NCBI GenBank assembly: GCA_977862235.1
Contig: OZ374559.1
Coordinates: 2,852,001-2,916,000 of the forward strand
Direction: 5' to 3'
From: Dudresnaya verticillata
Taxonomy: Eukaryota
DNA: 64,000 nt
The notes beneath the pieces are model-generated. The model made no database searches. It had not been told where the DNA came from and worked only from the letters and a program-made list of their open reading frames with translations. Positions 3,409 to 47,643 of the stretch are shown piece after piece. Positions within the stretch are counted from its first letter, which is position 1. Every line of letters starts with the position of its first letter. The position numbers and the translations under genes are program-made.

Positions 3409-3790
3409 TGATGGGTACTGTGCGGCGCGGCGATCGCGTGCGTGCCCTGTGGCGACCGGAGCCCGGTTGGCACTGTAGGGATCTGGGAGGAGGCGCTCGG
3501 GCGCTGGCAAGTCTGGTGGGCACCGTGCTGGTTGCCCCCACTCCTCGACTGGAGTGGAGCAGGTTTATGTAGGCCTTCTGTCAAGGCGGGAGCCGCTCGA
3601 ACCCGCCGTCGGCCCTCGCCCGCGCCGCGCTGGCGTGCAAACAGCTTCCCGCGATTATTGTCGCATAATTGCGCCAAATCATGCGTCCTATCTTGACTGA
3701 CGGGTTTGCTATCATACCAGATGATCTGGCTGCCATCTAACGTTGTCTGCGTCAACTACAGTGCCCGCTGTGTGCCACAGCGGGATAACA
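3409..3790 (-). repeat. 3' LTR (382 bp)
   Basis: Matches 8484-8865 except for one substitution seen (GACTGACGGG vs GACTGAAGGG). Confidence 0.97.
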
Positions 3791-3841
3791 GCCCCCCACA
3801 GCCAGTGATGTATACACTGAGCTGGTTGTAGGATGATAAAT

Positions 3842-7575: not shown

Positions 7576-7604
7576 GACTCGATGATGCTTGTGGAAGGCC
7601 TTGT

Positions 7605-8414: not shown

Positions 8415-8483
8415 GTTGTGTTGGGCGGTGCCCGCCGTACCACGCGCGTCGCTCAGTAGTGCTCTTCGAAGAACAAAGCGCTT

Positions 8484-8865
8484 TGATGGGTACTGTGCGG
8501 CGCGGCGATCGCGTGCGTGCCCTGTGGCGACCGGAGCCCGGTTGGCACTGTAGGGATCTGGGAGGAGGCGCTCGGGCGCTGGCAAGTCTGGTGGGCACCG
8601 TGCTGGTTGCCCCCACTCCTCGACTGGAGTGGAGCAGGTTTATGTAGGCCTTCTGTCAAGGCGGGAGCCGCTCGAACCCGCCGTCGGCCCTCGCCCGCGC
8701 CGCGCTGGCGTGCAAACAGCTTCCCGCGATTATTGTCGCATAATTGCGCCAAATCATGCGTCCTATCTTGACTGAAGGGTTTGCTATCATACCAGATGAT
8801 CTGGCTGCCATCTAACGTTGTCTGCGTCAACTACAGTGCCCGCTGTGTGCCACAGCGGGATAACA
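8484..8865 (-). repeat. 5' LTR (382 bp)
   Basis: Direct repeat of 3409-3790; contains the hairpin CCCGCTGTG-tgc-CACAGCGGG near its outer end. Confidence 0.97.
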
Positions 8866-8954
8866 GTGCCCTTCTTCACGGCAAGGAAGTTTGCAATGCG
8901 CCGCACGCCAAGTTCAAACCCGTGGCCAATTCGGCCATAGGTGTCGACAATCAT
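8866..8954 (-). mobile_element. Proximal half of the CRE-like LINE fragment split by the gypsy insertion
   Basis: Encodes MIVDTYGRIGHGFELGVRRIANFLAVKKG and continues in frame on the far side of the gypsy element. Confidence 0.8.
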
Positions 8955-9617: not shown

Positions 9618-10899
9618 CATCACTTTACGAAAGCATGAAGCTAGAGCATCCCTACTGGATACTCATAAGCACTACATAGGAGGCAAATCTGCAGGATTAA
9701 AGTTGCGACGATTGACGCTGACGGCGACAAACTGAGTAACAAACGAGACAAGACGATTCAAGAGAGCATGTTTCTCAGCAAGCGGGCAAGTGCCTTTCTT
9801 TTCGGCAAGGAAGTTGGCGAAGACTTGAGCGCCGATGTCGAGGCCAGCACCGGTGCGCCCATATATATCAATGACCATCGGGTGTAGCTCAATGTCATAT
9901 TGATCACAAACAGTGCGGTAATAGTTACGTTTCGCCCTCTCGTGGGCAAGGATGGCCTGACCACGACGCGACCGGTTCTGCCCGGCAGTGAATGGGGACT
10001 CCAAAGGACTCACAACAGAGACATCGAACGCTTGTGCTTTACGGGAAAAGCTGCGATCGTCCACGTAGATGTCTAGGCGAAGCGGGTCGCGGGTGGGGTC
10101 AGAGGGATCGACAACGGGCTCTTCCAGGCGAAGTTGGACGCCATGATGAAGCGCAACAGTACGAATATAAGCAGCGAATTTGTCTCGAAGGCCATGTTGG
10201 CAACGGATAGACCCTTCGAGAGCGCCACAGACGGTGGCATGGTGCCCATAGCGGTTGAGCAGAGGGATAGAGGAGCAGGTGTCAGCTGCGCAGCGGGAGC
10301 ATGGGAGGCCGCCATCGAACAACGGGAGACCGAGACGAAGGCGGACCGTGATCTTCCAGATCTCGGACTCGACGCGAAGGTCACTCCCGTGAAAAGGGAT
10401 AGTGCTGAATGGGCGAGCAGAGTTTGAGGTACCAGTAGATTGGAGTCGTAGACGAGTGCGAATGTCGGCAGCATCGTGAGAGGCAGGCGTCAGGGTAGAG
10501 AGCTTATCAAGCAGGAGCCGGTTGGTTAAGTCGTGTTGTAGGGCGTACGTGGGCTGGAAGGCAGTGGATAAACCGCGAGCCAGTAGCGAGTCCATGGAAA
10601 TAGGGTGCGGCAGATGACGAGAGGGATAAAATGCTCTGTTCGCGTCGTAAAGGAGCAGAGAGGATAGTACGAGCGCTAAAACCGGAAACGCCGAGTAGAG
10701 CAGTGATAGTCGGCAATCAGGCGAGAACGGAACTCAGAAAAGCAACATCCGGCAACCATGAAGTATGCGTGAGACCTAAACCGCCTTGGCGCAGCGGGAG
10801 ACCGGCCAATTCCCAAGCACTGTTGGTCAGCCCCATGCGTTTCGAGCGGTAACGGCTAATCTGAGTTCCTACGAGATGGTTATGTTTCAAGGCATGCAA
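9618..10899 (-). mobile_element. 5'-truncated, decayed CRE-like LINE (RT thumb, CCHC zinc finger, RLE)
   Basis: GLPLRQGGLGL; RLRLGLPL...CSRC...HHATVC; RLDIYVDD...AFDVSVVSP...ERAKRNYY...HPMVIDIYG. Stop and frameshift at 10595-10720. Confidence 0.88.
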
Positions 10900-10934
10900 G
10901 CTGACGTTACTGCTAGGATTTTCATACTTCGGTT

Positions 10935-11068
10935 ATTCTCCAGCTCACCGCACTCGCCGTGAATCGTCGCCGTCCCGTTAGTCCAGGCCTTCCAGTAGTC
11001 ATCAGCGGCTAAGTCATTAGGGTTTCCGCTGTTCGTCTTGCTTCATTAAAGTTGTGATGATGATGATG
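10935..11068 (+). mobile_element. About 135-bp 5'-truncated copy of the LINE at 1-624
   Basis: Near-identical to 468-601, ending in a (GAT)n tail. Confidence 0.9.
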
Positions 11069-11204: not shown

Positions 11205-12701
11205 CTAACCGGAGCAATTGCAATCGCACTTGAGGTTCTTCTTAATGCCTGGAACTCTCAAACTTGACTTCACAGACTTAGAGGCAGAGACCATGGCGTT
11301 CAGCATATCTGCGTTTGGAGTATCGCCACTCAGCTCCCATGCAAATGACCCACCAAGACCCTTATTGGCAGCATATATCGCCTTGCTGGCGATGGTGGAA
11401 GGAGTGTCATAGCTCCACCATTCACCAGAGCAGAATGCATACATAGTTCCTGCAATGGGCCCTGTCGGCGGACAGCTGTTGATAAGGACCTTGTAGTCAT
11501 CAGTACCCTCTTCCCAAGTTCCGGGAGCTGGACCTGTTGCAGATCCTCCTGGGGCAGACTGCGAAACTCCCTGCCATCCACGGCCGTAGAATGGCATGCC
11601 GAAAATGATTTTGTCGGCCGGCACGCCCTTGGCCAGCAGGTAGTCAATAGCTTGGTCGGCATACATACCTTCGATCGGAATACCGTCATACGATTCGAGA
11701 GGGGCATTCGGGGCTGTTGGACCACTGGGATCCCACGCACCGAAGTAGTCGTACGTCATTACCATCACAAAGTCCATGTATTCAATTGCTCCAGCGTAAT
11801 CTGCTTTTGTGAGTTTTCCGTCCGACCTAGCGTCACCTGCGATCGCAGCAGATACGAGTTGAGTTGGGAACTTTTCGCGCACTGCCTTCATCAGGACTGT
11901 GAGAGCGTCGCGGCCGCTATCGTCGCAAGTGAGTCCGCAATCATTGGGATACTCCCAATCGATGTCGATGCCATCAAAGACTCCCAGCCATCTTTGATCA
12001 TAAATCATATCATAGCACGACTGTGCGAATTGCGCGGCGTTTTTGGAAGCTGTTCCGAAGTTACCTGAGAGAGTCCACCCACCGATCGAGTACAGCACCT
12101 TGATGTGCGGGTACTTTTTCTTGAGCTTCAACAACTGGTTGAAATTACCCTTAAGGGGATCATCCCATGAATCGGCGACACCGTCAACACTTTCGGCTGC
12201 TGAGAAGGCTTTCTCATATTCTGCCCAGGTGTCGTACATTTTGCATTTTCCGGAAGAGTCAACATCTCCAAACGCATACAAGATATGCGTAAGTTTCGCT
12301 GCTGACCCGCTGGTATCAATGTCTTTGACGAAATACCTTCGATCGTAGCTAACCCAGTTCGGGAAATAGGCACCGACAAATGAACCAGCGGGAAGCGGCG
12401 TCGGTGTGGGTGTTCCAGTTCCTGTCGGAGTTGGTGTTGGCGTCGGGGTTGGCGTGGGCGTTCCCGAGCAAGGTCCGAGGTAATCCCAAACTCCCCATTG
12501 TCCTGTAGTTCCAGGCTCCTCACCTTGGGTCCACCACTTCGCCTTGTACTGAGCGGCTTCATGAGAGACCGAGTCTCCTTCTTCATAAATACCTGTGGCC
12601 TCCCAAGCAGGGTAGGTGCATTGGGGAGTCTGCCTGGAGCGAGCAGCAACAATGTTGATCAAGCTCCATAGCAGCAGAGCGGCTGTCGCCGTGAATTGCA
12701 T
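11205..12701 (-). CDS. Secreted GH18 chitinase: signal peptide, CBM5/12 chitin-binding module, Pro/Thr linker, catalytic domain
   Basis: Signal MQFTATAALLLWSLINIVAA; CBM motif YKAKWWTQGEEPG...GVW; (TP)n linker; SIGGW, FDGIDIDWEYP (DxxDxDxE), MTYD. TATA-like CTATATAA about 95 bp upstream. Confidence 0.96.
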   Translation of the reverse strand: MQFTATAALLLWSLINIVAARSRQTPQCTYPAWEATGIYEEGDSVSHEAAQYKAKWWTQGEEPGTTGQWGVWDYLGPCSGTPTPTPTPTPTPTGTGTPTPTPLPAGSFVGAYFPNWVSYDRRYFVKDIDTSGSAAKLTHILYAFGDVDSSGKCKMYDTWAEYEKAFSAAESVDGVADSWDDPLKGNFNQLLKLKKKYPHIKVLYSIGGWTLSGNFGTASKNAAQFAQSCYDMIYDQRWLGVFDGIDIDWEYPNDCGLTCDDSGRDALTVLMKAVREKFPTQLVSAAIAGDARSDGKLTKADYAGAIEYMDFVMVMTYDYFGAWDPSGPTAPNAPLESYDGIPIEGMYADQAIDYLLAKGVPADKIIFGMPFYGRGWQGVSQSAPGGSATGPAPGTWEEGTDDYKVLINSCPPTGPIAGTMYAFCSGEWWSYDTPSTIASKAIYAANKGLGGSFAWELSGDTPNADMLNAMVSASKSVKSSLRVPGIKKNLKCDCNCSG

Positions 12702-14977
12702 GGCGTTTTGTGAGTTGAACTCGAAATCGGGGTTTCTTGAGGAACTGGTACTTGGATGGAGTAGATGAATCAGTCGCCTGCAATTGTCAAGTGTTTATAT
12801 AGTACATCTCGGGTCTGGTACTTTTCCTCCAACCTCCCCTCCCATCTCTAAGACGAAATGCTCAGTTTGCGGAGATCCCTCAATATCGCATTGAGCAGTC
12901 TGTTAGGGCAGGTTATTACCAATTATTCTAAAGACAAGAAAGGCATCAGCCTACTGAGCATTATCCGTTCAGGCGTCTGCGGATCTTACGCGAACATACA
13001 TCCTGAACCAAACTTAAAACAGTGCAAGCTAGCTGGCAAGCTATTCCAATGGCAGAGTCTTCTGACTTTCCAGAACAGTACACTTTTTGGAATTTTCTAT
13101 CGTACAGTATTCCATGGTCTCGATAGAAAGAAAACAGATGACAAGAATATATTGAAGACCCCGCAAAGATAAAAGCTTCTAACAACTTGCAGCCATCACG
13201 TTAGTCTAGATAATGAAGAATTTCGACATTTATCTCTGCTGGCAAAGCAGCTCCAGAAACTGTCCACTGGCGTAACTTTATCATCTAAAGCACGCGATCA
13301 CGGCTGCAAACACAAGAACAGGGTCACTAGGAACTATTACTATTGTGCTATTGATACCTGTGCATGAAGTTTAATGATGATATTGGGCTCGAGAGACAAT
13401 CATTTTGAGTCTAGTGCTATTGTATACTTTGCAGGTGCGAAACAGTTTTCTGCGCGGTACTGTAATAAAGAACTCTGCGAGATATGGAGCAGACACCGAA
13501 ATATTGTCACTGTGAGCCGACGATGTGCCACATGGTTTTATCGCTTGGGACAAAGTCTTGTGATGAGCCGAAAAGGATTTTTTGCGTCGATCGAATGCAT
13601 ATTGGAATTGCGGCGTGTCATTGTCTTACAACAAGTTATGATGACTATAATGCAAAAAAACTTCTCAGTTTGAGATTGAAACTAGTCATTATTATCAAAA
13701 TAAAACGATAGGCTCTCGCGAAGCTCCCCAAAGGCAAACGAAGAACAAAATGCAAGAACATGAATGCAGAAGATCCATTTAGCAATATCCGTCCAACATC
13801 ATAGTGTCTGAGGAAGTTCTCGATATTCCTTTGGATGGAACAAGTTTAGAAAGGGTAATGTTAACTGGAACCAAAGAACCCCTTTTCCTTCTATAAAGGA
13901 ACGTTATAATTTCCCTTAAACGCGAGAAACGTTTCAGAAACATGTCGTGTATCGCTGTGCAGTTGTAAGTTTTGTTTAAAAACCTCATCACACACGCATA
14001 GCGGTTTTAACGGCCGCACAGGTTTTGGCTTTGAGTTGCAGAGTACAGCGCATTGATAATTTCAGTTTGAAGGGGGTAGGAATGGGAGACTCTTAGCCAC
14101 AAAGGAAGCTTGTCTTTAACATCTCACACAGAATACTATTTAATGGTTTATAAAAAGTGTGCTCTATGGGTGTTATTCCATCTTGAATGGCGGATAGGCC
14201 TCTGGTGCAGTGTGTAACTCGATGGAAAGACTTCTTGACGAAAAGGAATTCACGATATCTGCACGCAATATCGGTTAACCGAGCCGGGAGATGCAGATTA
14301 CCGCCTCCCCCAGTTGATTGCTTACAATATTCGTTATAGCAGCATACCCGGTCAAAGAGGCTGCCCCAGAAAATAAAGACAAAGCTGAAGTTGTTTCCGG
14401 AGATGCAGTCGACCAGAGCGAGGATGGGGTTTTGAACACAATTACCACGATGGCTTTCAGGTCCGTGGTGGATGCCTTCGGGAGAAACAGATTCCCTGCT
14501 GGGCACAGAATACGGTTCTGTTGTTGCGGAACTCCTCGTGATCACGCCAGTACTGTTGTTGAAATGAGTACTGACACTTCAAATATCTGTTATCAAAGGG
14601 CAGCTTTGTGCGGGAGCACGACCCAGATCTACCGTGGTATCACATCAAGATGTCGCCCCACCAAGGCGTGCTTCTCTCAGGAGCAATAATATGCTAATTC
14701 GCAGCACTTCTTAATTATTCTTCCTAGGGGCGGCTCCACAAAACAGCATTAACCTTAGAAAACCTTGTATATGTCCTCATTTTTGTAACCTTCGTCGCAG
14801 CGTTTGGTTGCAGCACTATGCTCAGAAAATGGATAAATCGTTCATGCTTTACTCATAGGCAATGTATGAATATAGATTGTCACATCAAAGCTAGCACCTA
14901 GAGTTTCCGGTGCAGCTTATCCTTTTTTTGCGTATGCAACGCTGTGTGAGGCTATTAGGACTGCCCAGAAATATTTA

Positions 14978-15321
14978 CAGAGGGTGTCCTAATCGCTTTA
15001 CACTTCTGAAAAGACATGCCAAGGGTAGCGAGCATAGGCCGAGCGTCCCACAACTCACACACTTTTTGGGTACGCTGTTTGAATTGCAGCTCCAAATCGG
15101 GACTGTTAGTTGCACCCCAGCTTCTGGATGATGCTAGGTCGAGCAGTTTGTGGGTGGTTTGATACACAGCTTCTGGATGATGCTAGGTCGCGCAATTTTG
15201 TGGGTGGCTTCTTCACACAAGCAGCGATCCCATGACCGAGTTTTAACTCGGCCAAGCTGTATATAAGACTCACCCTACAGTAGCTCACTGTCCTACTCGG
15301 CAAGTTCTTTCCTTCGTTCTC
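14978..15321 (+). repeat. Left terminal direct repeat (344 bp) with an internal imperfect 49-bp duplication and TATA box (TATATAA, about 15260)
   Basis: Identical by eye to 19056-19399; CAGCTTCTGGATGATGCTAGGTCG occurs at 15118 and 15167. Confidence 0.95.
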
Positions 15322-15377
15322 AAGCCGGTTGAGAACAAAGGATTTCCGTCACTCCGACAGGCGAACCACTCAAACTC

Positions 15378-15971
15378 ATGACTGAACCAACCCCTCCCTC
15401 TTCATCTATCTCAATCTCTCCCGCCATTCCCAGCGATTATGCTGAACTTGTCAATCATCAGCTTGCTTCTGGCATGGTCGGCCGTAGGGCCCTGTGGCCT
15501 CGCTCCAGTCTCGTTCTTCCTAACGAGGTGGGCTTCTTCAAGCCCGAGACTACCCTCTACCTGGAGACCCACCGCAAGGACCGCCGTAATGCCAAAGAGC
15601 TGGAGTATATTCACTCCGCTGGGTGCTGGATCGAGCAGTCTCTGGCTGCTCTCTCGCTCCTCGGGGCGGAATCTGATGTCGACAAGCAGTCCCGGCTTCT
15701 GGGGCTCATCGAAGAAGGTCTTGGTGGCGCGAAAGAAGTTCTCTCTATGCGTACAGCCCATTTCCAAACCGTTCTTTCGAAAGGACAGACTCAAGCCAAT
15801 CAAATCGCTGAGCTTGTCGAGACCCGTGTCGAAGCCAAGCGCCACCAGGTTCCCTCGGAAGCCTACGCAGACGTCTATCAGGAACTGTCTGCGAAATATG
15901 TCATCGAGACAGCCAAGAGTCTGGCTAAGGATGCTACCAGCGGTGGCAAGAAGCCAGACCACAAGGGATAA
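15378..15971 (+). CDS. DIRS ORF1 (gag-like, 197 aa)
   Basis: First ORF after the repeat; helical composition; its stop overlaps the next start as TAATG. Confidence 0.75.
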   Translation: MTEPTPPSSSISISPAIPSDYAELVNHQLASGMVGRRALWPRSSLVLPNEVGFFKPETTLYLETHRKDRRNAKELEYIHSAGCWIEQSLAALSLLGAESDVDKQSRLLGLIEEGLGGAKEVLSMRTAHFQTVLSKGQTQANQIAELVETRVEAKRHQVPSEAYADVYQELSAKYVIETAKSLAKDATSGGKKPDHKG

Positions 15972-18900
15972 TGTCACCCGGACAGGACCCAGTGCAGGCC
16001 TCCTGGCACCAAGCGCGGTGGGCCGGCACGAGACAAAGAGCGCAGAACTGGGAGCAGATCAGCGCGTCCGCCTTTGTCATCCGCATTCTTATGTTTGGAG
16101 TGTGGGACCCTCCTCAACGCCCGTTCACCCTAGGACGGGAGCTTCCCGAGATCCCTCAGAGCCCAGAAGATCTCTCTTTTGGCCGGAAGGAGCTGTCGGA
16201 GGGGTGCACTATCGGCACTTACCAGCAGGTGAGTGCGACCTTTGCACATCAACAACTCAGCAATGGAGCTCTCATTTCAAGCGCATTTGTCACTTGGCAG
16301 AAAGGCAAACCCCGCTTCATCATCAACCTAAAAGAGCAAAGCACCCATTGGGACAAACAATCCGTACGTATGGATACACTGTCCAGCTTTGGGGCCTGCC
16401 TTTGCCCTGGCGATTACCTTTTATCATTCGACTGGTCATCTGGGTATCGTCACTTCGCTCTTCATCGGAAGATGTGGAATTGGTTTCTTTTCAGGTACGA
16501 TGGACAGTATTATCGATGTATCGCGTTGCCATTTGGTTGGACAGCCTCTCCGTTCTGGTTTACAAAAATTCTAAGCCCTTTGACTCGGTTTATGCGGAGC
16601 GAGCTGTGCCTTCGTGTCCTAGTATGGCTCGACGACTACCTAATCGCCCCTGGAGATGGCAGCAGACCGAGCACTCCAGAAGATTGCGGCATCACCTCTG
16701 TTCATTTGGACCAGCTTTTCACGATGCTAGGGTTAGTTCGGCATCCCAGCAAGGGCATTTGGGGTCACGGCGCGACGAGAATCGAACATCTAGGGCTGGT
16801 TATCGACACTGTCGCATTTCGATACTTCGTATCTCCCTCGAAGCTTCAGCAGCTCCAAGAGATGTCCTCAGATTTGCTCCGAACCGCCAGGCAGAGGAGT
16901 CGCTGGGTCCGCGAAACTGTACTTGCCAGTTTTTGTGGCCGTGCTGTCTCGCAGCTCATACCGCTCCCGCTGGCGCGCTTCTTTACTCGGAGCTTGTACG
17001 ATGCTCTGAAGGATGTGGCGCCCAGGCGCGGCCGCTATCCGGAACGCACAGTGAAGCTGAGCCACACCGCGGTTCGGGATCTGCAATCCTGGTCTACGAT
17101 GCTGGCTGGAGATGGACGGTTAATTGGTGGCGGAAAACCTTCATGGTGCCTGCATACCGATGCAGCCGATGTAGGGTACGGTGCTACATTGGGTTCAAAT
17201 ATGCAGGCCGGATCCCCGGGAGACATAGAGGTACAAGGAATTTGGTCTCCCTTTCTTCGGTTGAAGTCCATTACGCTCCGGGAACTTGTTGCTGTCCGAA
17301 TGGCTTTGGAGGATTCGATGATGCAGTCTCAAATTACCGGAGATCATTCCATATTGCTCTTACACGTGGACAATATGGCAGTCTTCCACATCATTTCCAA
17401 CATGGTGTCAGCGAAGGCAGAACTCATGGCAGAACTCCGTCGGCTACACCACCTCCTCGTCGGGATGAAGGTAACCATTCGCGCGGAGTGGCTTCCGTCG
17501 GCCCTCAACAAATACGCGGACAGCCTGAGTCGGACTTGGAACCCGCGAGACCTCGCAGCGACGCCATTATTGCTGCAGTCCGTAGCAACCTCGCTCCAAT
17601 TACAAATCGTGCGGCGTTACTGGCCCCTCGGGGAAGCACCATCCGCACGCCGCAAGGTTATGATGGCCCAGTTCGCCGAGCACTGGGGAGACGGGAAGAG
17701 TCGTTTATGGAACCCTCCTCCGCCGTGGATTCCGTCCACGCTCCTCAAGATCAGAGAGGAAGGAGCGCACGGCATCTTAGTCGTCCCCTACTGGACCGGA
17801 GCGCCTTGGTTCGCACTATTGCAACAGATCTCGCTCAACAGTCGCGTCATCAGTCCCGGCCCGGGCCGTCCTCTATTCACAACAGAACAAGCCAACCCCG
17901 CCTGGGCGTTGTTATTGGCCGAAGTAGGGAAACCGCCGGTCAGGCCCTCCAACGCAGAATCGCGTCTCTCGTCCCTTCAACTGCTGCCGGACGAGCTACA
18001 GTACGTCTAGCAGGGCGCTGCATTGCACCGTCCACTGACCGTACCAAAACAACTCAGTGGAGGAAGTTTGAGGGCTTTTGCAATCGGAATGGGCATTCTT
18101 CCCTCCCAGCAGGGGTTGGTACCGTTCTATCCTATGTCGGTTTCTTATTTGAAGAAAATCGCATTCATGGAAAGTCAGTGGACCACTACCTTTCCGCAAT
18201 CCGGACGAGGCATTTGCGAGAAGGTTTGCCAGACCCTCTGGTAGGCAATCCTCATGCCGACCTTCTTCGTGCTTTTCGTCATCAAGACGACAATCGAGGG
18301 GCACTTGTAGACGTTCGAGCTGCTCTGCCGGCTGCAATTGTCTTCAGGATCAGGCGTCGCGGCCTTCAAGCTCGTCCAGGTTCGCTTACGGAGCATCAGT
18401 GCGCTCTCGTGGAGTTTCAATATTTGATGACATGGCGGGAAAATTCTGTTCGAACTGTACAGGTCCAAGATATCAGCGTGGTTCGCGCTCCAGCTTCAGA
18501 CACTTCACCCACCGTGCTCAACCACATTACTATCACGGCACGACCCCGTTCTCTGAAAGGCAGATTGCTCCGAGGCGTTGGGGCCTGCGCCGTCACCTGC
18601 CGTCACAGTCCCGTTGGTTTTGTCAATCGAAACCCGCTCGCGCTACAGCTTCGCTTCTATGCTGGACGCTCCGCAATTGCCCAAACAGACGACCTCTACT
18701 GGGCCCGTCAGGGCGTCGATCTTCGTCCACAAATCGTTAGTGATTCTCTTGCAGCGTGTCTCACAGATCTGCAAATAATTCCGCCGCCGTTCGCCAGTTA
18801 CACCTCCCACAGCCTCCGAAGCGGCAGTGTTACAGCACAAGTCCTCCTCAACGTTCCTATGCCCGTCATCACAAACCGGGGCGGCTGGCGTAGCAGCAAT

Positions 18901-19011
18901 ATGGTCGTGAACGTCTACTTTGACTCAAGGCTTCGCCTGTCTCCGGAAATGAATCTTTATTTCTGGTCGCTGAAAGACTCTTCTCGTCCTCCGCTCCCGC
19001 CCCCTCAGTAA
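15439..19011 (+). CDS. Overlapping ORF with C-terminal tyrosine recombinase (recognisable from about 17950); true start uncertain
   Basis: N-terminal SAM-like segment (IAPSTDRTKTTQWRKFEGFC...YLSAIRTRH) and catalytic set WR...K...SHSLRSG...GGW...VY. Confidence 0.9.
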   Translation: MLNLSIISLLLAWSAVGPCGLAPVSFFLTRWASSSPRLPSTWRPTARTAVMPKSWSIFTPLGAGSSSLWLLSRSSGRNLMSTSSPGFWGSSKKVLVARKKFSLCVQPISKPFFRKDRLKPIKSLSLSRPVSKPSATRFPRKPTQTSIRNCLRNMSSRQPRVWLRMLPAVARSQTTRDNVTRTGPSAGLLAPSAVGRHETKSAELGADQRVRLCHPHSYVWSVGPSSTPVHPRTGASRDPSEPRRSLFWPEGAVGGVHYRHLPAGECDLCTSTTQQWSSHFKRICHLAERQTPLHHQPKRAKHPLGQTIRTYGYTVQLWGLPLPWRLPFIIRLVIWVSSLRSSSEDVELVSFQVRWTVLSMYRVAIWLDSLSVLVYKNSKPFDSVYAERAVPSCPSMARRLPNRPWRWQQTEHSRRLRHHLCSFGPAFHDARVSSASQQGHLGSRRDENRTSRAGYRHCRISILRISLEASAAPRDVLRFAPNRQAEESLGPRNCTCQFLWPCCLAAHTAPAGALLYSELVRCSEGCGAQARPLSGTHSEAEPHRGSGSAILVYDAGWRWTVNWWRKTFMVPAYRCSRCRVRCYIGFKYAGRIPGRHRGTRNLVSLSSVEVHYAPGTCCCPNGFGGFDDAVSNYRRSFHIALTRGQYGSLPHHFQHGVSEGRTHGRTPSATPPPRRDEGNHSRGVASVGPQQIRGQPESDLEPARPRSDAIIAAVRSNLAPITNRAALLAPRGSTIRTPQGYDGPVRRALGRREESFMEPSSAVDSVHAPQDQRGRSARHLSRPLLDRSALVRTIATDLAQQSRHQSRPGPSSIHNRTSQPRLGVVIGRSRETAGQALQRRIASLVPSTAAGRATVRLAGRCIAPSTDRTKTTQWRKFEGFCNRNGHSSLPAGVGTVLSYVGFLFEENRIHGKSVDHYLSAIRTRHLREGLPDPLVGNPHADLLRAFRHQDDNRGALVDVRAALPAAIVFRIRRRGLQARPGSLTEHQCALVEFQYLMTWRENSVRTVQVQDISVVRAPASDTSPTVLNHITITARPRSLKGRLLRGVGACAVTCRHSPVGFVNRNPLALQLRFYAGRSAIAQTDDLYWARQGVDLRPQIVSDSLAACLTDLQIIPPPFASYTSHSLRSGSVTAQVLLNVPMPVITNRGGWRSSNMVVNVYFDSRLRLSPEMNLYFWSLKDSSRPPLPPPQ
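15971..18010 (+). CDS. DIRS RT, RNase H and N6-adenine-methyltransferase-like domain (679 aa)
   Basis: PRFIINL, YRHF, LPFGW, WLDD (RT); TDAAD...ELVAV...VDN...ADSLSR (RH); WNPPP...ILVVPYW...W (MT). Confidence 0.95.
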   Translation: MSPGQDPVQASWHQARWAGTRQRAQNWEQISASAFVIRILMFGVWDPPQRPFTLGRELPEIPQSPEDLSFGRKELSEGCTIGTYQQVSATFAHQQLSNGALISSAFVTWQKGKPRFIINLKEQSTHWDKQSVRMDTLSSFGACLCPGDYLLSFDWSSGYRHFALHRKMWNWFLFRYDGQYYRCIALPFGWTASPFWFTKILSPLTRFMRSELCLRVLVWLDDYLIAPGDGSRPSTPEDCGITSVHLDQLFTMLGLVRHPSKGIWGHGATRIEHLGLVIDTVAFRYFVSPSKLQQLQEMSSDLLRTARQRSRWVRETVLASFCGRAVSQLIPLPLARFFTRSLYDALKDVAPRRGRYPERTVKLSHTAVRDLQSWSTMLAGDGRLIGGGKPSWCLHTDAADVGYGATLGSNMQAGSPGDIEVQGIWSPFLRLKSITLRELVAVRMALEDSMMQSQITGDHSILLLHVDNMAVFHIISNMVSAKAELMAELRRLHHLLVGMKVTIRAEWLPSALNKYADSLSRTWNPRDLAATPLLLQSVATSLQLQIVRRYWPLGEAPSARRKVMMAQFAEHWGDGKSRLWNPPPPWIPSTLLKIREEGAHGILVVPYWTGAPWFALLQQISLNSRVISPGPGRPLFTTEQANPAWALLLAEVGKPPVRPSNAESRLSSLQLLPDELQYV

Positions 19012-19055
19012 GCTCCACAAGTTCAACAAGCTTCCCTGTTTCGGTACCGGATTTT

Positions 19056-19399
19056 CAGAGGGTGTCCTAATCGCTTTACACTTCTGAAAAGACATGCCAA
19101 GGGTAGCGAGCATAGGCCGAGCGTCCCACAACTCACACACTTTTTGGGTACGCTGTTTGAATTGCAGCTCCAAATCGGGACTGTTAGTTGCACCCCAGCT
19201 TCTGGATGATGCTAGGTCGAGCAGTTTGTGGGTGGTTTGATACACAGCTTCTGGATGATGCTAGGTCGCGCAATTTTGTGGGTGGCTTCTTCACACAAGC
19301 AGCGATCCCATGACCGAGTTTTAACTCGGCCAAGCTGTATATAAGACTCACCCTACAGTAGCTCACTGTCCTACTCGGCAAGTTCTTTCCTTCGTTCTC
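19056..19399 (+). repeat. Right terminal direct repeat (344 bp)
   Basis: Copy of 14978-15321. Confidence 0.95.
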
Positions 19400-21876
19400 C
19401 CACCCTCCCGCCCTGCTCTTTCTCTTCAAATTCTTTCCTTCGTTACACCATTCTACTTGGCATTAACGCCTCCAATCTCTGCAATTGTTCTAGCATTTAC
19501 GCCTTCCTTGGTTAGTCATGGTTACTGATGATTACTACTTCTCCAATAAAGTAATCATTTCCTTTTCATGAAATATTTACATAACCATTGAAAAATCTTC
19601 GGCACATGTAGATAGAACATGCATCTCGACGGGGTTGCCGGGCCAAGAATTGCGAATTGTTGGGGACATATTGCCACATGTTTGCAAGCAAGGTATATGT
19701 AGCGCGACCGAATCTGTGTCTGATATAACATTAGGCTGCGTGCGTTTATGGTGTGTATGTGATTTCTTAGACATTCATACTGTGCTTACGGTACTCTTCT
19801 CGGTCACAACTCTGTCGAGCACCGATACGGAGATATTGTCGTTGTCCATGAAGAAAGAACCTCACAATCAGAGACTTATACATTGCTTCATATTGCGCGA
19901 CGAAATGAATTACAAATCTCTCGCAAGGGTGACGCTGAGGCAAAAATTGCTCACACGCAATATGCAAGCGTTCAACTGGGAGTTCTAAGCGTACTTGATG
20001 GGAATGGTACAACTACAGTCAATCTGATTTGCTTGTATGATGAGGTAAAGGGCCCAAACGGCGGTCCTTTTGGGTATATAGGTTTGATTGTGCAGCGATC
20101 GACCCACTATTGTATAAGACCACCCTAAATAGCCATTAAAATCAACATCACTATTGTAAGGGGTTAATATCTCTTCGAATAACGCAAACGCTGGATCAAT
20201 GACGCGGTGTTGAAACCAATGGCTCTGTAGAACAGCTCCGAGTGCATGATGCGATATGGGATAGCTCGGTAGAAGAGCACTATTCCTGCACCTACATTCG
20301 GGATCGAAAGAGCGTGTAGTCGCTTTCAGTGTTTTCGCATCCAGCTGGTTGCACCCTGCCGATCTCCGAACCCTCGAAAGCCCGTATGCCTATTCCTTTT
20401 TTTGTGCATATTCACCACGAGCAAGCTGCTAGCAACTTGTCATCCGTTTTACACGCAAGGACTTTTCTCCAGAATTTATTCATTTGGGCAAACCCTAGAG
20501 AGTGGTTTCTGTTTCACGGCCCTTTTGTATGTACTTGTGCTTATCCCAGTGAGGGTATTCAGCTGGACGAGTACATGCATTTCGGATGTTTTCAATAATG
20601 CCGGAAGACCGCAGGCTGAACCTCCTGTGGCCTGCCCGCCCTGCGGATCCGTGGTCGTTTAACTGCCGTCGACAATCAGGAAGCTTCAGTTTGAGTGGAG
20701 AAGTTCCTTGTGGAGAAGTTCCTTGTACTTCAACCACAACTACGAGGTAATAGCTAGCCAACTTTCCAGCCTCCTACTGTAAATTAGTAGCCTGACGGAC
20801 TCTGCACTCCTTCCACACAACTGCGGTAGTGTACCTGCACCCAACTGCCTTACCTTACATGATACCAGGAAGGCCACGATTTGAACACTCGCTAAACAGT
20901 GTCACTAGAACACAGGATTTGGTCGGGATAGGACACGCTTAATCACTACATTTATGTCCCAAGATCAACCTGCTCTAGCACTGTGTCCTATAAGAGGCAA
21001 CCCAATGTATAGGCATATGTACACTGTGCGTATTCGCTCGCAGAGTTCTATCAGCAGCAACCGAGCGTTTTCATCTTCCGTCACATGCCGAGAGTTTGCG
21101 TTTGGAATAATACTATCACAGGAAACGTCTTCCCCCGAATGACAGCGCCCTTCATGAAGACACAAATGAGCTGCATTGTAAATCATTGGCGCCAACTAGG
21201 AGGCGACGAACTCTGCTAATAGGTCCTTGACGGTTCCGATCGATAACCGCTTCCCAATAATTGTTTCGGTCACCCATCTCAACAGCCACAGATATTGCTC
21301 TTCGCTCGCTTAATCTCCTTGGTTCGTCGATGTGTGGCCGCAAAGGTTAGTCTACGCAAGCCTTCTTCAACCCCGTTGCTTGTTCTATTGCCGGCTACCA
21401 TAAGGGTTTCCCCATTGTTCTTTCTGAAGGTCCCCCTGAAATATTTTTTGAGACAAGAATGCAACTTACCACCATAGACGGAGAGGCTATGTGACCACGA
21501 GCACAAACTTATCGTTAAAGCTTGCCCCATTCCTGTCGGGCAAATGGAATGTCTTGGATATACATGACTCTTGGTAGTTCCATTCTGATTGTTGAAGCAC
21601 ACCGAGACCAGATCTTCCAGGGTGCAAAACGTTTTGGGCTTCAAATCTTGAAAGAAAGCTACGGCAAATATGAGCGGGAGGATCGGTCCACAAAGAGATC
21701 TCCAAACAGAGATAGAATATATTGGCAGCCCGTGTAGAATGTGTCAATATAAGTGCTGAGCTGTTGCTGCGAATGAATCATAGGCTATGATGCATTGGCT
21801 GCAAAATCTCTGCAGCTCCTGTCTATGAATCATAGTCTTGCCTATGAATCGTAGCCAAGAGCCGCTTAATCTCAAT

Positions 21877-21906
21877 CTTCAATAAAGTTGTGATGATGAT
21901 GATGAT
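21877..21906 (+). mobile_element. Minimal 3' tail of the (GAT)n-tailed LINE family
   Basis: CTTCAATAAAGTTGT(GAT)5 matches 11041-11068 and the reverse complement of 52680-52709. Confidence 0.7.
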
Positions 21907-24900
21907 CTGCCGAGAGACTACACTCAGAACAAACCCGATTTTCTGTGCTTCAGGGTATTTCGCAAACCCAGAGAAGGAGCCCATGGAAAATGTATGACCT
22001 GAAGTCTTGTCAGGCCCCGCACGGCATACCGGAATTGTAGCCAGAACCCAACACTCTGGATACAGGCGAACTTTCCCATTTCAGCGATAGCACACCGAAG
22101 GCAGCGCCCTCCTGGAGGTGTGCGGTAAAAATTAGTACTGTACCACCGTGTGTGTGTCCGGGAGGAGGGCGCAACATTACTTTTTGTGTAAGCGCTTTTC
22201 GTAATGGACTTGTAGCTACACAAGCACAGCTAGCCTAGAACCCTAAGCAGCGACGTTGAAGATAATTCTGCAACGCATATATTACCGTGCACGTCGATTG
22301 AATACATCCGACGCGAGAGCAATACAGAAATCAAGAAGACCTTCTTCATGGACCGCAGGTCGCAGTTTTCCAAGATTGATCATACCCCTCAGAGAGTGTG
22401 CATCAGACATTTTGAAAGCCTTGCGTTGGAAGATATTCTTGGTTTATCCTGAAGAAGAATCGGGAGGCTTTCTTGGTTGCTGTCATACTGCAGCATTTTG
22501 CGAAAATTGCTGGATCTCGCCGTTGTTTCCAGTAGACATTGATAAGGTTCCCAGAACGCGCCCCGGTGGAACAAGGTGATCGAATGCTGCTGACACACCG
22601 ATAGATAGCGAACAGATGGATGAAGCGCAGAGAAGATGTTCTCTGATGAGGGTTTGGAAGATCTTTCTTGAACACCAGGATGGTGCTCGAGTTGGCAAAT
22701 AGTCTGAAACTAGTTATCATAGAGGTGCGTGGCCTCTGGTCGCCAGTGCAGAAAGTTTGCAATGAGGACCAATAGCAAGAAAGCTTATTGGCTCGATTTA
22801 TTCAGAGCTCTACCCAAAGACATCATCATCACCCGCGCCATGAGCTTAACCGATATCGTAGCAAGGTGCTCGCACAAAGCAACGAGGCCCTCGCTGCATC
22901 ACAAGAGTACCTTGATACGGACCCTCGTTACAGAGGGTCCGCCGGGACGGCACACAGAGTCGTCTCGGTGTTTGAGAGACTTGGCTGCACATGTTCGCGA
23001 TTTCCCGAGCTAGAGAAACTCTGACCACCCGCTGCGGTTGCTGGTAGCCTGTGAGGCTTGCAGCGTATGGCGCGGGGAAGGGCTGCATGGTGTAGTAGTG
23101 TAGTAGGAATATACAACCGGTGAGCTGTCTGATATAATCGTCAGTGGGCGCCACTGTACGTGCCGAAGGTCAAATTTGCGACGCGGATGGTCTCCCTCAT
23201 GTCCCAGTTTATATTCCCAGCACCCGACTTGGCTGCACGACTGTCGGCACTTCGCAAGCGACATGAAACTGGAACGTGTCTTCCGTACAACAATGATATG
23301 AACATTCTCCTGCATTCCTTCCCGGTCTCGCGTGTGATGCAAAAGATAGCCAATGCTCTAAATGTTTGATACACTTGCACTGAGAACCGTCCATGCAATG
23401 GTGTTAGCTTCATTTGCCAAGCGCTTCGAGCTGCATCTCAACTATTTTGAGCTCGGCACATCGTTGTCGCAGGCACACATTTCGGGTGGAAGACTACTGC
23501 ACTAAACTAGCATAGTGAGCACAAGTTTGGCACATCGCAATAATATGTGACATCACTACTTTTGACGCAATGCAGTTAGCACCCTGCACGACATGCAAAC
23601 AACTATGTTTACACTCGCGCTCTTTCCCCGCCCGGCCTGTTGCACATACGACTCACCCGATGCTTCTGCTCGTGATTCCACTGCAGTACTCGAATGTTAT
23701 CCTTTTGAAAGTGCGCGACAGAAAACTCACCAAAATCGTTTTCCGATATTCTCTGGTGCTGATGATGCGGCTCCTTATGGATGGTGGGAAAGAAAGGAAA
23801 ACGGCTCACGAGAGTCTCGTGTCAGTCTCGAGACTTACATTCAGGTCTCCTCGGAGTTTTTGAAAAGAACCATTGAAGATGCGCCCGCGTCCCTAGTCTC
23901 CTTTATTCGCAGGCAGTTGGAAATGGCAGTTGGAAATGGCATTATGGTATTGATGCGAGATTCGCTGTGTTCCGATATCGCTACAGTATTCCTACAAGGA
24001 TCTATTGAGCAACCTCATCACATATTTTCTTGCTTCATAACAACTCATCACTTGGGATGCACTTCCCCGTAAGAAAAACGCACTTCTCGCATTTCTATAA
24101 AGAGATTGTTCAGTTCCAAAGAGCTCATATCCATCGTTTTATTTCATGTTAGGCGCGCCCCACCCACCAATCCAGCGGAGTCCAGCGGATTGCCCATGGA
24201 GCCCCGCACCCTGCCCTCGAACCGAGCCCCCCGGTCCGTTTTGGCCCATGGTCCAATCAGGGCAACTCTGGATCGGACCTGCGGGACAAGGACTAGGAAA
24301 ACGCAGCGGTGATAGTAGGAACATCGCAAAGCAGTCACACACGACGGCTTAAATGCTGCAGCGAGACGCGAGAGTCGAACAACTGCAAAAAGGCTTGCAG
24401 CTTCGCGCCTGTGCGCGCGAGAGTTCAACCGATGTCTCGAAAGCGGCAGGCGCTCAAAGAACTTAACAAGTTTGTAACTCCCGCTGTGCAGCAACGCCCC
24501 GCCCTAGATTCATTTCAAAGCTTGATAATTTCATGGTCACCAATCTTCGGCGTTCAGAATTTCATTGCCGTCAACCAGTACTCATTCCGTCTACATTACG
24601 TACGGGCAGAGTACTCAAACTATCGACCGATCACGAACCTCTCCATTGATGCTACCCACAGACCTTAAGGTCTCGTAATTACGTCACCATGCTCGGTGCA
24701 CAAGCCGTGATAGTATTCGCTACAAAACCACCTCCCCCTTTCCCTGACGAGAACAAGAAAAAAGCCCTTGCTAGAGAAGCTGATAAGTTGATGAAAGATG
24801 AAGTCGCGAAAGGAAAAGCTAATGGGAACTGGACAACGTTTTCATATCCGCTCCACAGACTTCAGTGATGCTCCAACTTGAGACTTTCCGTCTTCTCCAA

Positions 24901-25558
24901 ACTCTCTTCAGATTTTAGGTCTGGCGTTTCGGCAACAGCTCATCAGCCCCACACCTGGGGCCCAGATTAAGATTTCGCCTCAATCCACATCTCTCAAGTG
25001 ACTGTTGTTCGCTTCCTCATACTGGAGTACGGTCTAAGCATCGCAACGTTCGATCTGCAAAACGACTGGCGTTCCTCAGAATGACTAGTCGAAGCGGCGT
25101 GACCAAGAAGGGCAATTGGCCATCTCGATGAATAACTTGGCTTGCACAAGCCGTTCAGGTCACGAGGCTCATCGTACAAATGCGTAACTTGGCTTGTACA
25201 GCCGCTTCTGGCTTGTCGTTCAAACGGTTATACAAGCTGATATTTGTTCTTCTGTTCAATGGAATACTGTTCTGTTGAAATATTACATTGTTACGGTTAA
25301 CTTTCTCTTATGGCAGTTCACGGTATTATGTGCAGTGTTCTGTTTATGTTTCTTTGAGTCTTTGTACATAGTTTGAATAGCTTTCGTAGTACTTTGGTCT
25401 ATTTATATTGACCAAAGCTCGTACTTCGGATGACCCAGCCATCGAAGAACACACACACACTCAACAACAATTGACTGCTTCCTTTTTACCACTTGCAACA
25501 CTCTACATCCACTGTTCTAGCCTGTTTTCCTGCCGCTGCACCCGTCAATTTATTAGTT

Positions 25559-26467
25559 ATGGGCCCAGAACTGCCTTCGCGCCCGAAGTTCTCCTGGACA
25601 CTGAAGGACGCTCCATGGACTGATGGTCGTGGTACTCAAGAGGCGTACCTTGACGCCGTCAAGCTATGGAAGTCATTTCACGACAGGCTCCCTGACATGA
25701 ATAGCAACAAAATTCCTGCTTCTCTTCAAGAGATTGTGTTACAGTCACAGCTATATGGTCGCGCGCAGGACCTAGTCAAAAAACTTTCTACGGATGTTAT
25801 TCAAAGTGAAGATGGTGCTCTTTTCATAGCAAAGGCACTACACAAGGATGATCCCCTCGCGGTTGTACATGACGTCTTCCACAAATTTATGTCTGTTTTA
25901 AATACAACGCGTGGTGAGAATGAAGGATTCAAGAACTTCGAGCAGCGCTTTGATGCGCAGTTGAGCCGTTTTAATGCCTCTGCTTCATCAGCCGAGCTAC
26001 CGGAATCTATTAGTTCTTTCTTGCTCTTGGCGAATTCTCGTCTGGACTCGAATCAGCGTGTTTCGATCCTTGCAGCTACTTCTACACGCACGTCTGCAAG
26101 AAATGATGCAGAGCCAATTTTGGACAGTATCAAGTATGAAGAAACAGCTTCCATCTTGCGTACATGCTACAAGCCTCGAGAGGTCCGCAATACTAGTACT
26201 GCTTTATCAGGAAACAGTGGCTTTACCGGCTCTCGTTCGAAAGTTAAACGGGGTTATCGGAAACCTATATGTGAGATGACGCCTGAAGAGATTGCTGATT
26301 TGAAAAAACGTTCTACGTCCCGAGCATGCAATCAAAAAGGTCATTGGGAGGGAGATGCAGAGTGCTCAAAATCAAAGTCAGACGACACACAGCAAAAATC
26401 ACCGAGTGTTTCAGGAAAGTCTCAAACCAAAACTATGAACTTTAATATGGTTTCTGTTCAGCCTTAA
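25559..26467 (+). CDS. gag: Copia gag
   Basis: ATG lies within the PBS; degenerate zinc knuckle SRACNQKGHWEGDAEC. Confidence 0.8.
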   Translation: MGPELPSRPKFSWTLKDAPWTDGRGTQEAYLDAVKLWKSFHDRLPDMNSNKIPASLQEIVLQSQLYGRAQDLVKKLSTDVIQSEDGALFIAKALHKDDPLAVVHDVFHKFMSVLNTTRGENEGFKNFEQRFDAQLSRFNASASSAELPESISSFLLLANSRLDSNQRVSILAATSTRTSARNDAEPILDSIKYEETASILRTCYKPREVRNTSTALSGNSGFTGSRSKVKRGYRKPICEMTPEEIADLKKRSTSRACNQKGHWEGDAECSKSKSDDTQQKSPSVSGKSQTKTMNFNMVSVQP

Positions 26468-28238
26468 AAAGGGCTTCCTCTTAATGTCCCCGGTCCACTA
26501 TTGGACGATGGTGCACCATATGCTGGCATTGGACTGGTGGAGTTAAAATCGCTCGCGCCAGTACTTATTCCTTCCTGGAATGGGAAACTTCAACCCCTGC
26601 CGCCGTCTATATCTGATCGCCCTTATTGGCAATATGGACAGGGATCTCACTCTAGCGCCCCGCGATGCATTCTTAGTGTTTATCTCAGTATGCGTAGTGA
26701 TTCGGGTACTTTGGGGAATGTGAGGCATCTTGTTATTGATGGATGTTCACAGTGGATAATTGGAAAAAACGTTACAAAGCATTGTAACATTATTCACATT
26801 CAAGGGCATTTCCTACAGCTGCCAACATCTGATAAGAATGGGAATCCCGATAAGGTAACAATTGTGAAACACGATATGTTGGATTATCTACCCTCTAGTA
26901 GATTTTTTGTTTCTACACAGCCGTCTCTACATGATGCTCATGTTTCTGCATTGGTATCAAATTCAGTTAATTTGTCATGGAAGCAACTCAAAGCTGTTAT
27001 TGACAAAGTTCACCGCCATGTTTGCGGTCACTCAAATGTTTATGATATCAAGACGCTTCTCCAGCGCAACAAATTATGGACCCCTGAGTGTGTCTCCTAC
27101 CTCTCCAAAGTTTTGAACGATTGTAGCTCATGCCACACAACTGACCTTCCTAAAAAATCACGCAGTGTCTCATTGAACAATTTCTCTCGTGGCTTCAACG
27201 ATTTATTATTCGTTGATCATTTTTTCCCAGAGAATGAGACGACATTTCACGTGATGGATGCGAAGACTCGCTACTCAGCAGGTGATTGTGCACCTTCGAA
27301 AAGCATGCAAGATTCCATCAGTGTATACGAGTCCTGTTGGATATCACCCTTTTGGTCTCCTGTTTCTGTGCAAGCAGATCCTGCTTTTGATAATGCTGAT
27401 TTTAAATCAGATTTATCTCGGTCTGGAACTTTGTTTCGTCGTGCGCCTCCGCGTCGGCCGAGTAAGAAAGCTATTGAATCGAAGCATCGAGTCATCAAAT
27501 CTGTTTTTTACCGTCTTCGTCATGCCAACCCAGAAGCTGATGCCCGCCTGCTTGTACAACAGTCCATCCGAATTTCCAACGACCTATACGGAAACGATGT
27601 TGCATCTTCTCACGAGCTAGCAAAAGGTTATACACGTCCCGTCTGTACTGGTCAAGCTCCGGTTAAAGTTCCGAATGAAATTATCAAGGCTCATGAAGAG
27701 CTTTCCGCAAGAAGAAAACTCACATCCATTCTGCGATCCAAGGCTACCGTTGACAACCCTGTGAAAGTAGGAGATCTTGTTGAGATCTTTTTGAAACAAC
27801 CAAACCAAAAACGTGGTGCTTGGACCAACCCCCGTGCTGTTTTATCAATTGACAGACGCGCAAAAACTGTCACTGTTCCAGTAACTACAGGTCGTACCTT
27901 ATCTGCTGCTGTCGAAGACATCCGACCTGCACTACCTAGCAGTGCCTATTTTTCAACCTTAATTCAAGAGGCTATTGATGCCTGTTCTGAAGAGCTACTG
28001 GACACATTTGACCAGATGGTCGCCGATAATGATGACGACACTGTGGATACATACCACATAAATGGCAATCAAGATGATGGTAACTTTAAAGACGAAGATG
28101 ATGTTTCGGACGGGTACGGTGTTACAGAATCTCCTGTTGTAGGAGATGATGAACGTGCTACAGTACAAGAAGCCACTATTGACAATTATGAAGATACAGG
28201 CACAGTTATTGCCGATGAAGATTTGACATACACGCCTG
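26468..28238 (+). pseudogene. Copia protease plus integrase, truncated
   Basis: LDDGAPY (PR); HRHVCGH...CSSC (HHCC); VDHFF...DPAF...IES (DDE). Separated from gag by an in-frame TAA and runs into the LTR at 28239. Confidence 0.85.
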
Positions 28239-28457
28239 GTTCTGTTTATGTTTCTTTGAGTCTTTGTACATAGTTTGAATAGCTTTCGTAGTACTTTGGT
28301 CTATTTATATTGACCAAAGCTCGTACTTCGGATGACCCAGCCATCGAAGAACACACACACACTCAACAACAATTGACTGCTTCCTTTTTACCACTTGCAA
28401 CACTCTACATCCACTGTTCTAGCCTGTTTTCCTGCCGCTGCACCCGTCAATTTATTA

Positions 28458-47620: not shown

Positions 47621-47643
47621 CTAGCTGCTATTTGGATATCGAC

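What the first reader, a model, noticed from the sequence alone, without database searches (positions are those of the whole stretch)
14978..19444. Intact tyrosine-recombinase retrotransposon with simple LTR-like direct repeats
Seen: identical 344-bp direct repeats at both ends, with no inverted termini, no internal complementary region and no second (B) repeat pair that I could find. The repeat's terminal 14-mer TTCTTTCCTTCGTT recurs at 19431-19444. All ORFs are open. Established: DIRS1-like elements have ITRs plus an ICR, and PAT/Ngaro have split direct repeats (A1..B1A2B2). Inference: a distinct terminal architecture, or integration of a circle into a solo repeat; very recent and possibly active.
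Basis: partly seen in the sequence, partly recalled or inferred. Interest (0 to 1): 0.7.

Follow-up and report, generated by a model that had tools for sequence, protein, structure and literature searches.

The report
Recombinase retrotransposon missing its B repeats
This is an intact jumping gene, likely recently inserted, of the rare kind that encodes a reverse transcriptase and a tyrosine recombinase; it has only one of the two repeat pairs such elements normally carry, which is either a likely simplified end design or damage to this single copy.

Summary
In detail: an exact 344-bp direct repeat (14978-15321, 19056-19399) brackets three open frames (gag-like; RT-RNase H-methylase-like; tyrosine recombinase). 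No ITR, ICR or B pair exceeds chance, while the same test finds B pairs in 3 of 3 control loci. Coding features fit PAT/TOC3-type DIRS elements, not Ngaro. A G-poor tail continues to 19568-19581, where three signals meet: AATAAA, a 6-bp TTTTCA identical to the bases at the start of the second repeat's junction, and a 12-bp repeat of the left junction. Best reading: an A1-body-b-A2-tail-b element whose B repeat has shrunk to about 6 bp. Whether this is a family trait or one damaged copy could not be tested: no genome is held, no sequencing run was listed, and close relatives (up to 80% identical) came only as proteins. The methylase-like domain has lost its first motif across the close clade. 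New variant of a known kind, provisional.

The parts
14944..14961 (-). Left-flank segment that is an inverted 15/18 match to repeat positions 9-26 (14986-15003); the two arms are symmetric about the centre of the 12-bp repeat. Possible target arm; may be chance
   Evidence: 12 of 5904 other 60-nt windows score as high; 11 of 3928 flanks give an 8-bp arm
14968..14979 (+). 12-bp direct repeat GAAATATTTACA, left copy, spanning the left junction (10 nt of flank plus the first 2 nt of the 344-bp repeat)
   Evidence: only 2 copies in the window, both strands
14978..15321 (+). Repeat A1, 344 bp, with an internal 24-bp duplication and TATATAA at 15260-15266 (promoter role inferred)
15310..15342 (+). 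13-bp hairpin across the end of A1; pairs part of the 14-mer with unique sequence just downstream
   Evidence: 5 of 500 shuffles fold as well
15378..15971 (+). ORF1, 197 aa from ATG, gag by position only; no CCHC zinc finger; its stop overlaps the pol ATG
   Evidence: no meaningful Pfam hit
15971..18010 (+). ORF2 pol, 679 aa: RT (WLDD at 16625), RNase H (four acidic motifs, 17153-17530), C-terminal methylase-like domain with NPPP but without the DRFAS motif
15382..19011 (+). ORF3: stop-free frame of 1209 codons overlapping gag and all of pol; tyrosine recombinase domain in about 17950-19011 (WRE 18433, HSLR 18808, RGGW 18877, VYF 18913); start codon unknown
19052..19057 (+). TTTTCA at the internal junction into A2: candidate micro-B1
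19056..19399 (+). Repeat A2, 344/344 identical to A1
19399..19447 (+). Diverged duplicate of the last 50 nt of A, ending in the 14-mer and followed by TTACA (19443-19447); alternative right end
19448..19569 (+). G-poor tail with AATAAA at 19545-19550 (inside a 9-bp hairpin) and TTTTCA at 19563-19568 (candidate micro-B2 and 3' end)
19570..19581 (+). 12-bp direct repeat, right copy; most likely outer boundary

Best explanation
This is an intact DIRS-order retrotransposon with PAT/TOC3-type genes, built as A1 - genes - A2 - tail, that likely ends at 19568-19581 and likely replicates by the split-direct-repeat route with the B repeat reduced to about 6 bp. Inferred cycle: transcription starts about 30 nt after the TATA box, late in A1, and ends near TTTTCA behind the AATAAA. 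RT copies the RNA; at the RNA 5' end the cDNA jumps to the same sequence in A2 and copies the missing 310 nt of A, which explains A1 = A2. It then meets the internal TTTTCA, which equals the 3' terminal TTTTCA, and this microhomology would close the circle in place of B1/B2. The recombinase would insert the circle at a TTT(A/T)CA-like host site. Shown: repeats, ORFs, motifs, absence of long B or ICR. Inferred: transcript ends, template jumps, circle, integration chemistry, and that other copies share the design. The 12-bp duplication at the two junctions is longer than the 3-bp cores reported for DIRS1-like elements and is not fully explained (extended target homology or repair at a staggered break).
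For: Domains: RT profile hits caulimovirus, retroviral and Ty3 RTs; YR profile hits Cre at E 2.6e-4; the C-terminus of pol aligns with the methylase-like domain of five distant relatives (hhalign 98%), three of which carry Pfam Dam. No B1 or ICR above chance: 62-291 of 300 shuffled queries score as well, against 0 of 300 for controls L007, L009, L010. Right end: the 12-bp repeat is reached in 0 of 116 other 500-nt bins. The tail is 12% G, matched by 7 of 881 windows, like the element's other non-coding DNA and unlike the flanks (Fisher p 0.0025). AATAAA lies at a suitable distance (96 of 12760 positions have this). TTTTCA at 19563-19568 is the longest match to the internal junction among 500 downstream positions (27 of 59301 window positions reach 6 nt) and sits 1 nt before the 12-bp repeat. 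Distant relatives show that B can be short (28-39 nt in L007 and L010) and that a spacer separates A2 from B2 (79 nt in L009).
Against: One copy only; no second set of ends. A 6-bp match is weak and was found after looking. The 5-bp TTACA at 19443-19447 plus the 14-mer gives a competing end, and a hairpin at 22918 matches that end's predicted junction over 14 nt (2 of 361 candidate ends reach this). Deleting 13 nt between the two near-identical hexamers of a 19-nt B would produce exactly the observed internal junction, so single-copy damage fits too (read). YR integration is described as giving no target duplication beyond a 3-bp core (PMC3266345, passages), so 12 bp is atypical. In 3 of 116 control bins a junction match of 10-11 nt occurred. 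The folded empty site and circle junction gave no support to any candidate end. The composition change-point is imprecise (19510-19600).
Confidence: 0.45

Rival explanations
1. An ordinary PAT/TOC3-like element with short split direct repeats whose B1 was shortened or lost in this copy (or in its immediate parent) by a microhomology deletion; the family is canonical and this copy is probably a dead end.
For: All reviewed PAT, Ngaro and VIPER elements have A1-B1-A2-B2 (PMC4157794 section 7; PMC6681497 section 6). Individual copies often lose part of their repeats (PMC9210276, passages). The three distant loci with visible repeats look canonical. The tail end carries both hexamers 13 nt apart, so one slip would give the observed junction.
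Against: A1 and A2 have no difference in 344 bp (95% bound 0.9% divergence) and all ORFs are open, leaving little time for a deletion after insertion. No similarity to the tail extends upstream of the 6 bp.
Confidence: 0.3
2. The element ends at 19445-19447: the 14-mer marks the 3' end, the 5-bp TTACA at both junctions is the crossover core, and 19448-19581 is host DNA (for example an older short insertion with its own 12-bp duplication).
For: 14-mer beyond chance. TTACA at both junctions, a core of ordinary size. A perfect 9-bp-arm hairpin at 22918 matches this end's predicted junction over 14 nt. The tail's AATAAA context resembles the LINE-like 3' ends of the window weakly (33 of 1000 shuffles).
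Against: Needs the 12-bp repeat, the AATAAA, the TTTTCA and the G-poor composition all to be coincidences or a second insertion at the same base. No RT or YR homology near 22918. The 14-mer is explained as part of an old tandem duplicate.
Confidence: 0.15
3. Non-recombinase origin of this copy: a linear cDNA captured at a staggered break (12-bp target duplication), a circle recombined into a solo A-tail repeat, or an assembly artefact.
For: A 12-bp flanking duplication is what break repair or endonuclease insertion leaves. DIRS-1 cDNA is mostly linear and single-stranded (PMC7192593, abstract, introduction, passages). Solo repeats exist for Ngaro (PMC8547959, passages).
Against: It explains the flanks but not the missing B1, which is internal. 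Recombination into a solo repeat rebuilds the same structure. No reads were available to check the assembly.
Confidence: 0.1

Closest known systems
PAT-like superfamily of the DIRS order, Toc3 form (as defined in PMC4157794 section 7)
   Same: gag without zinc finger; RT-RH-MT-like pol; YR on the same strand; one pair of identical direct repeats, the second downstream of YR and followed by further element sequence
   Different: No B1/B2 pair beyond 6 bp; methylase-like domain lacks its first motif; 12-bp repeat at the junctions. Sequence relationship to TOC3, PAT or kangaroo was not tested (no reference sequences from any tool)
DIRS1-like elements
   Same: MT-like domain after RNase H; long overlap of the YR frame with pol (reported in half of 28 elements, PMC3266345 passages); short junction core
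   Different: No inverted terminal repeats and no internal complementary region
Ngaro and VIPER/TATE
   Same: RT/RH plus YR; direct repeats A1 and A2
   Different: These lack the MT domain and have clear B pairs (57-308 bp in VIPER, PMC6681497 Table 1); VIPER gene order differs
LTR retrotransposons (Ty3/Gypsy, Ty1/Copia)
   Same: Two identical direct repeats around gag-pol, TATA box late in the first repeat
   Different: Recombinase instead of a DDE integrase; no TG...CA termini; unique tail after the second repeat
Cryptons and Starships
   Same: YR element with short direct repeats at the junctions that reflect target microhomology (PMC13465315, passages)
   Different: They are DNA transposons without RT; Crypton repeats are 4-6 bp

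Membership tests
DIRS order (YR retrotransposons) | RT/RNase H ORF | tested here: met
   Pfam RVT_1 E 1.1e-5, under the curated cut-off; profile and fold matches to RTs; motifs
DIRS order (YR retrotransposons) | Tyrosine recombinase instead of integrase | tested here: met
   Cre match E 2.6e-4 with R, H-x-x-R and W aligned; Phage_integrase E 0.12; K and Y assigned from the recalled catalytic set
DIRS order (YR retrotransposons) | Gag-like first ORF | tested here: inconclusive
   197-aa ORF in the gag position, no family hit
PAT-like (Toc3 form) | MT-like domain after RNase H | tested here: met
   hhalign 98%, E 4.4e-14; degenerate, first motif missing
PAT-like (Toc3 form) | YR on the same strand as pol; no zinc finger in gag | tested here: met
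PAT-like (Toc3 form) | A1 and A2 identical direct repeats, A2 downstream of YR | tested here: met
PAT-like (Toc3 form) | B1 before A2 identical to a terminal B2 | tested here: not met
   Longest anchored match 6 bp; local search at chance level, controls positive. Holds for this copy only
PAT-like (Toc3 form) | RT/YR phylogeny with PAT, TOC3, kangaroo | not testable with these tools
   No named reference sequences were returned; the tree holds unnamed relatives only
DIRS1-like | Inverted terminal repeats | tested here: not met
   only an 18-nt imperfect inverted match in the left flank
DIRS1-like | Internal complementary region | tested here: not met
   92-133 of 300 shuffled junctions score as well
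Ngaro / VIPER | No MT domain | tested here: not met
   MT-like domain present
Ngaro / VIPER | A1-B1-A2-B2 repeats | tested here: not met
DIRS order (YR retrotransposons) | Circular or linear cDNA intermediate and new insertions | not testable with these tools
   No genome; no run listed

The most novel reading that the evidence does not exclude
A whole lineage of tyrosine-recombinase retrotransposons (the 31-protein clade with the truncated methylase-like domain) has given up the long internal copy of the circle junction that every described DIRS, PAT, Ngaro and VIPER element carries. It closes its cDNA by a 6-nt microhomology or by its own recombinase, and chooses targets whose flank mirrors the element's left arm around a 12-bp overlap: a third terminal architecture beside ITR/ICR and split direct repeats.
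Probability: 0.25. Interest if true: 0.72.

Novelty: new variant of a known kind. Interest (0 to 1): 0.45.

Why it matters
The replication model for this order rests on an internal copy of the circle junction (ICR, or B1-A2); for DIRS-1 the ICR was shown to be essential (PMC7192593). A mobile family without one would show which part of that model is dispensable. It would also supply the intermediate form between LTR-like and split-repeat ends that PMC4157794 notes has not been observed for the related inverted/split transition. At 4.6 kb with all frames open it would be a compact test element. If other copies are canonical, it is one more PAT-like family with a degenerate methylase domain.

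Tried and rejected
No whole genome is held. Sequencing runs: none was listed; this is no evidence either way. Earlier findings for this genome, sequence or place: none. Related loci: 15 from metagenomes, 1 from genome contigs, 0 from viral contigs in two scans. The three closest (L001, L002, L006; 37-47%) do not reach the termini. A scan with the YR alignment could not be run. The window's own gag and pol are not in the protein collection. The single-sequence YR model was unusable (pLDDT 33) and was not searched. The representative-protein search for YR had not returned when I stopped. Diverged B1 upstream of A2: rejected (p 0.19-0.83). Vestigial ICR (9/10 inverted match at the YR stop; 16/18 match at 18945-18961): not above chance. 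Folding of empty sites and circle junctions, and ORFs across the empty site, did not pick an end. Sites at 22918 and 33684 that resemble the repeat start: no further similarity to A or the tail, no RT or YR homology. Host identity: the Atlas gave no informative taxon; 'red alga' is my recalled impression from the element mix and is untested. The careful tree did not finish; one search is the quick tree, 44 rows, with 9 of 11 loci dropped because no stop-free stretch over 250 aa matched. The kangaroo paper is not held.

Full report
Observation. The 14-mer occurs three times; it ends 3 nt before the end of the repeat, and its third copy (19431-19444) is beyond chance (1 of 5000 and 4 of 5000 shuffles for 60- and 200-nt spans). 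That copy is the conserved end of a diverged 46-nt duplicate of the repeat's last 50 nt. The longest inverted repeat in 14500-20000 is 12 nt. The element region has no significant nucleotide or protein match elsewhere in the window.

Genes. ORF1 (197 aa from the ATG at 15378) has no family hit and no CCHC motif; its stop overlaps the ATG of ORF2. ORF2 (679 aa) has RT and RNase H motifs. Its profile hits caulimovirus, lentiviral and Ty3 RTs, and its model (pLDDT 87) matches CaMV RT best (E 1e-19). Its last 135 residues align with the methylase-like domain of five distant relatives (probability 98%). NPPP is kept, but the DRFAS motif is missing in the window protein and in 23 of 23 clade members that reach this region; P0024, outside the clade, keeps it (calling these the SAM-binding and catalytic motifs is recalled). 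ORF3 ends in a tyrosine recombinase domain that matches Cre (E 2.6e-4). Its frame is free of stops for 1209 codons; 0 of 2000 synonymous shuffles of pol leave it open (mean 21 stops). Long overlaps are known in DIRS1-like elements (PMC3266345, passages). Forty pol relatives (up to 80% identical) and 9 YR hits were found among the roughly 8000 candidates scored in each search. In a quick tree of 44 rows the window protein sits in a 31-row clade with SH-aLRT 100; no named reference element is in the tree. By the scheme of PMC4157794 (section 7 read) the gene content is that of Toc3-type PAT elements.

Is there a B pair or an ICR? For three candidate right ends I aligned the terminal 30 nt against the body (B1 test) and the reverse complement of the predicted junction against the body (ICR test). 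All six scores were at chance level (62-291 of 300 shuffled queries as good). The same B test on L007, L009 and L010 gave 0 of 300 each. These controls are distant (23-25% pol identity). L009 has A1...B1-A2-spacer-B2 with A 167, B 71 and spacer 79 nt; L007 and L010 have a 28-39-nt pair about 1 kb apart, with no A1 on the contig. Six other loci tested by self-blastn showed no direct repeat, most being too short. So the absence of B in this copy is real, and the lineage at large is canonical where it can be seen.

Where does it end? Two ends compete. (1) 19445-19447: after the 14-mer comes TTACA, which is also at the left junction. A perfect hairpin at 22918 matches this end's predicted junction over 14 nt (2 of 361 candidate ends do as well), but nothing else there is element-like. 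(2) 19568-19581: the 12-mer spanning the left junction recurs at 19570-19581 and nowhere else in the window. None of 116 other 500-nt bins gives 12 nt, though 3 give 10-11. The stretch 19448-19581 is 12% G, like the leader (14%) and unlike the flanks (22-25%); 7 of 881 windows are as low. AATAAA lies 16 nt before the CA at 19567 and 29 nt before the CA at 19580; LINE-like 3' ends in this window use the same hexamer. The longest match to the bases before the start of A2 among 500 downstream positions is TTTTCA at 19563-19568, one base before the 12-mer. I weight end (2) at about 0.65-0.7. These signals were found by looking, so their p-values are optimistic.

Mechanism. In described elements an internal copy of the circle junction restores the ends: the ICR in DIRS-1, shown essential (PMC7192593; abstract, introduction and passages read), or B1-A2 in PAT, Ngaro and VIPER (PMC6681497, section 6 and passages). 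Here TATATAA at 15260 places the predicted start late in A1, so most of A1 must be recopied from A2, which accounts for their identity. If the transcript reaches the end of the tail, B is needed only to close the circle, and the shared hexamer could do that. This is inference. The alternative is that B1 was 19 nt or longer and lost 13 nt between the two similar hexamers. Zero differences in 344 bp leave little time after insertion, but a slip during reverse transcription is possible. The 12-bp duplication exceeds the 3-bp core reported for DIRS1-like elements (PMC3266345, passages) and the 4-6 bp of Cryptons (PMC13465315, passages). An inverted 15/18 match between the left flank and the start of A is centred exactly on that 12-mer (12 of 5904 windows score as high), as recombinase arms around an overlap would be, but no matching symmetry was seen at either right end. 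A 13-bp hairpin across the end of A1 is unexplained.

Novelty. Nine literature searches listed no paper whose title or abstract start describes a YR retrotransposon family without B repeats or ICR. The library lacks the main subscription reviews and Repbase reports, so this is weak. I read passages of PMC6681497, PMC4157794, PMC3266345, PMC12477816, PMC8547959, PMC9210276, PMC3783388, PMC13465315, PMC7192593 and bioRxiv 2025.02.11.637652 (no mention of DIRS in its main text); no supplements were opened, and TE libraries in supplements may bear on this. Single atypical or incomplete copies are reported for VIPER and Ngaro (PMC6681497 Table 1; PMC9210276).

Verdict. A real, intact, young YR retrotransposon that works like a PAT/TOC3 element but fails the B-repeat test in this copy. 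It is filed as a provisional new variant, about even odds between a family design and one altered copy. Interest 0.45; 0.72 if the design proves family-wide.

Noticed in passing
window 11205-12794 (-): Stop-free GH18 chitinase with a CBM5/12 domain. The best named hits are actinobacterial, 53-59% identical, inside a eukaryotic, transposon-rich region: candidate horizontal transfer; no tree was made.
   Followed up: partly
window 3409-8866 (-): Gypsy-type LTR element, LTRs 382/383 identical, apparent 5-bp target duplication; pol region in several separate ORFs.
   Followed up: partly
window 25337-28457 (+): Element with identical 219-bp direct repeats and two ORFs separated by one stop at 26465-26467; Copia-like gag/integrase by eye, no Pfam hit, no RT seen.
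   Followed up: partly
window 467-629, 9672-11068, 21877-21909, 52678-52710: Non-LTR-type 3' ends with AATAAA followed by (GAT)n; two share 134 bp at 96%.
   Followed up: no
window 22918-22941 and 33684-33704: A perfect 9-bp-arm hairpin around a 6-nt loop, and an 18/21 match to the start of repeat A; both share 10-11 nt with the left junction. Chance or relics of related recombination sites.
   Followed up: yes
window 35226-50277: Cluster of long ORFs without Pfam hits around a weak Transposase_21 match (42250-43533, E 0.002): possibly one large EnSpm/Plavaka-like DNA transposon with cargo (label recalled).
   Followed up: no
window 46680-47630: GC-rich minisatellite of about 100-bp imperfect units.
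   Followed up: no
window 60541-61296 (-) and 63232-63981 (-): Two paralogous ~250-aa ORFs with signal-peptide-like starts and hydrophobic C-termini, no Pfam hit. They are on opposite strands: the second is on +.
   Followed up: no
L009 5192-5210 and window 19400-19415: Both elements have a CCCTCCC-containing stretch directly after A2 despite 23% pol identity; n = 2, may be chance.
   Followed up: no
YR C-terminus, window 18995-19011: The YR ends in P-Q-stop here and in P0042, P0044 and P0045 (S-Q-stop in P0046), 4 of 9 relatives printed; may reflect a nucleotide signal over the stop codon.
   Followed up: partly
L016: A DIRS-type pol on a 1.9-kb contig filed in a bacterial MAG at 189-fold coverage: probably eukaryotic contamination.
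   Followed up: no
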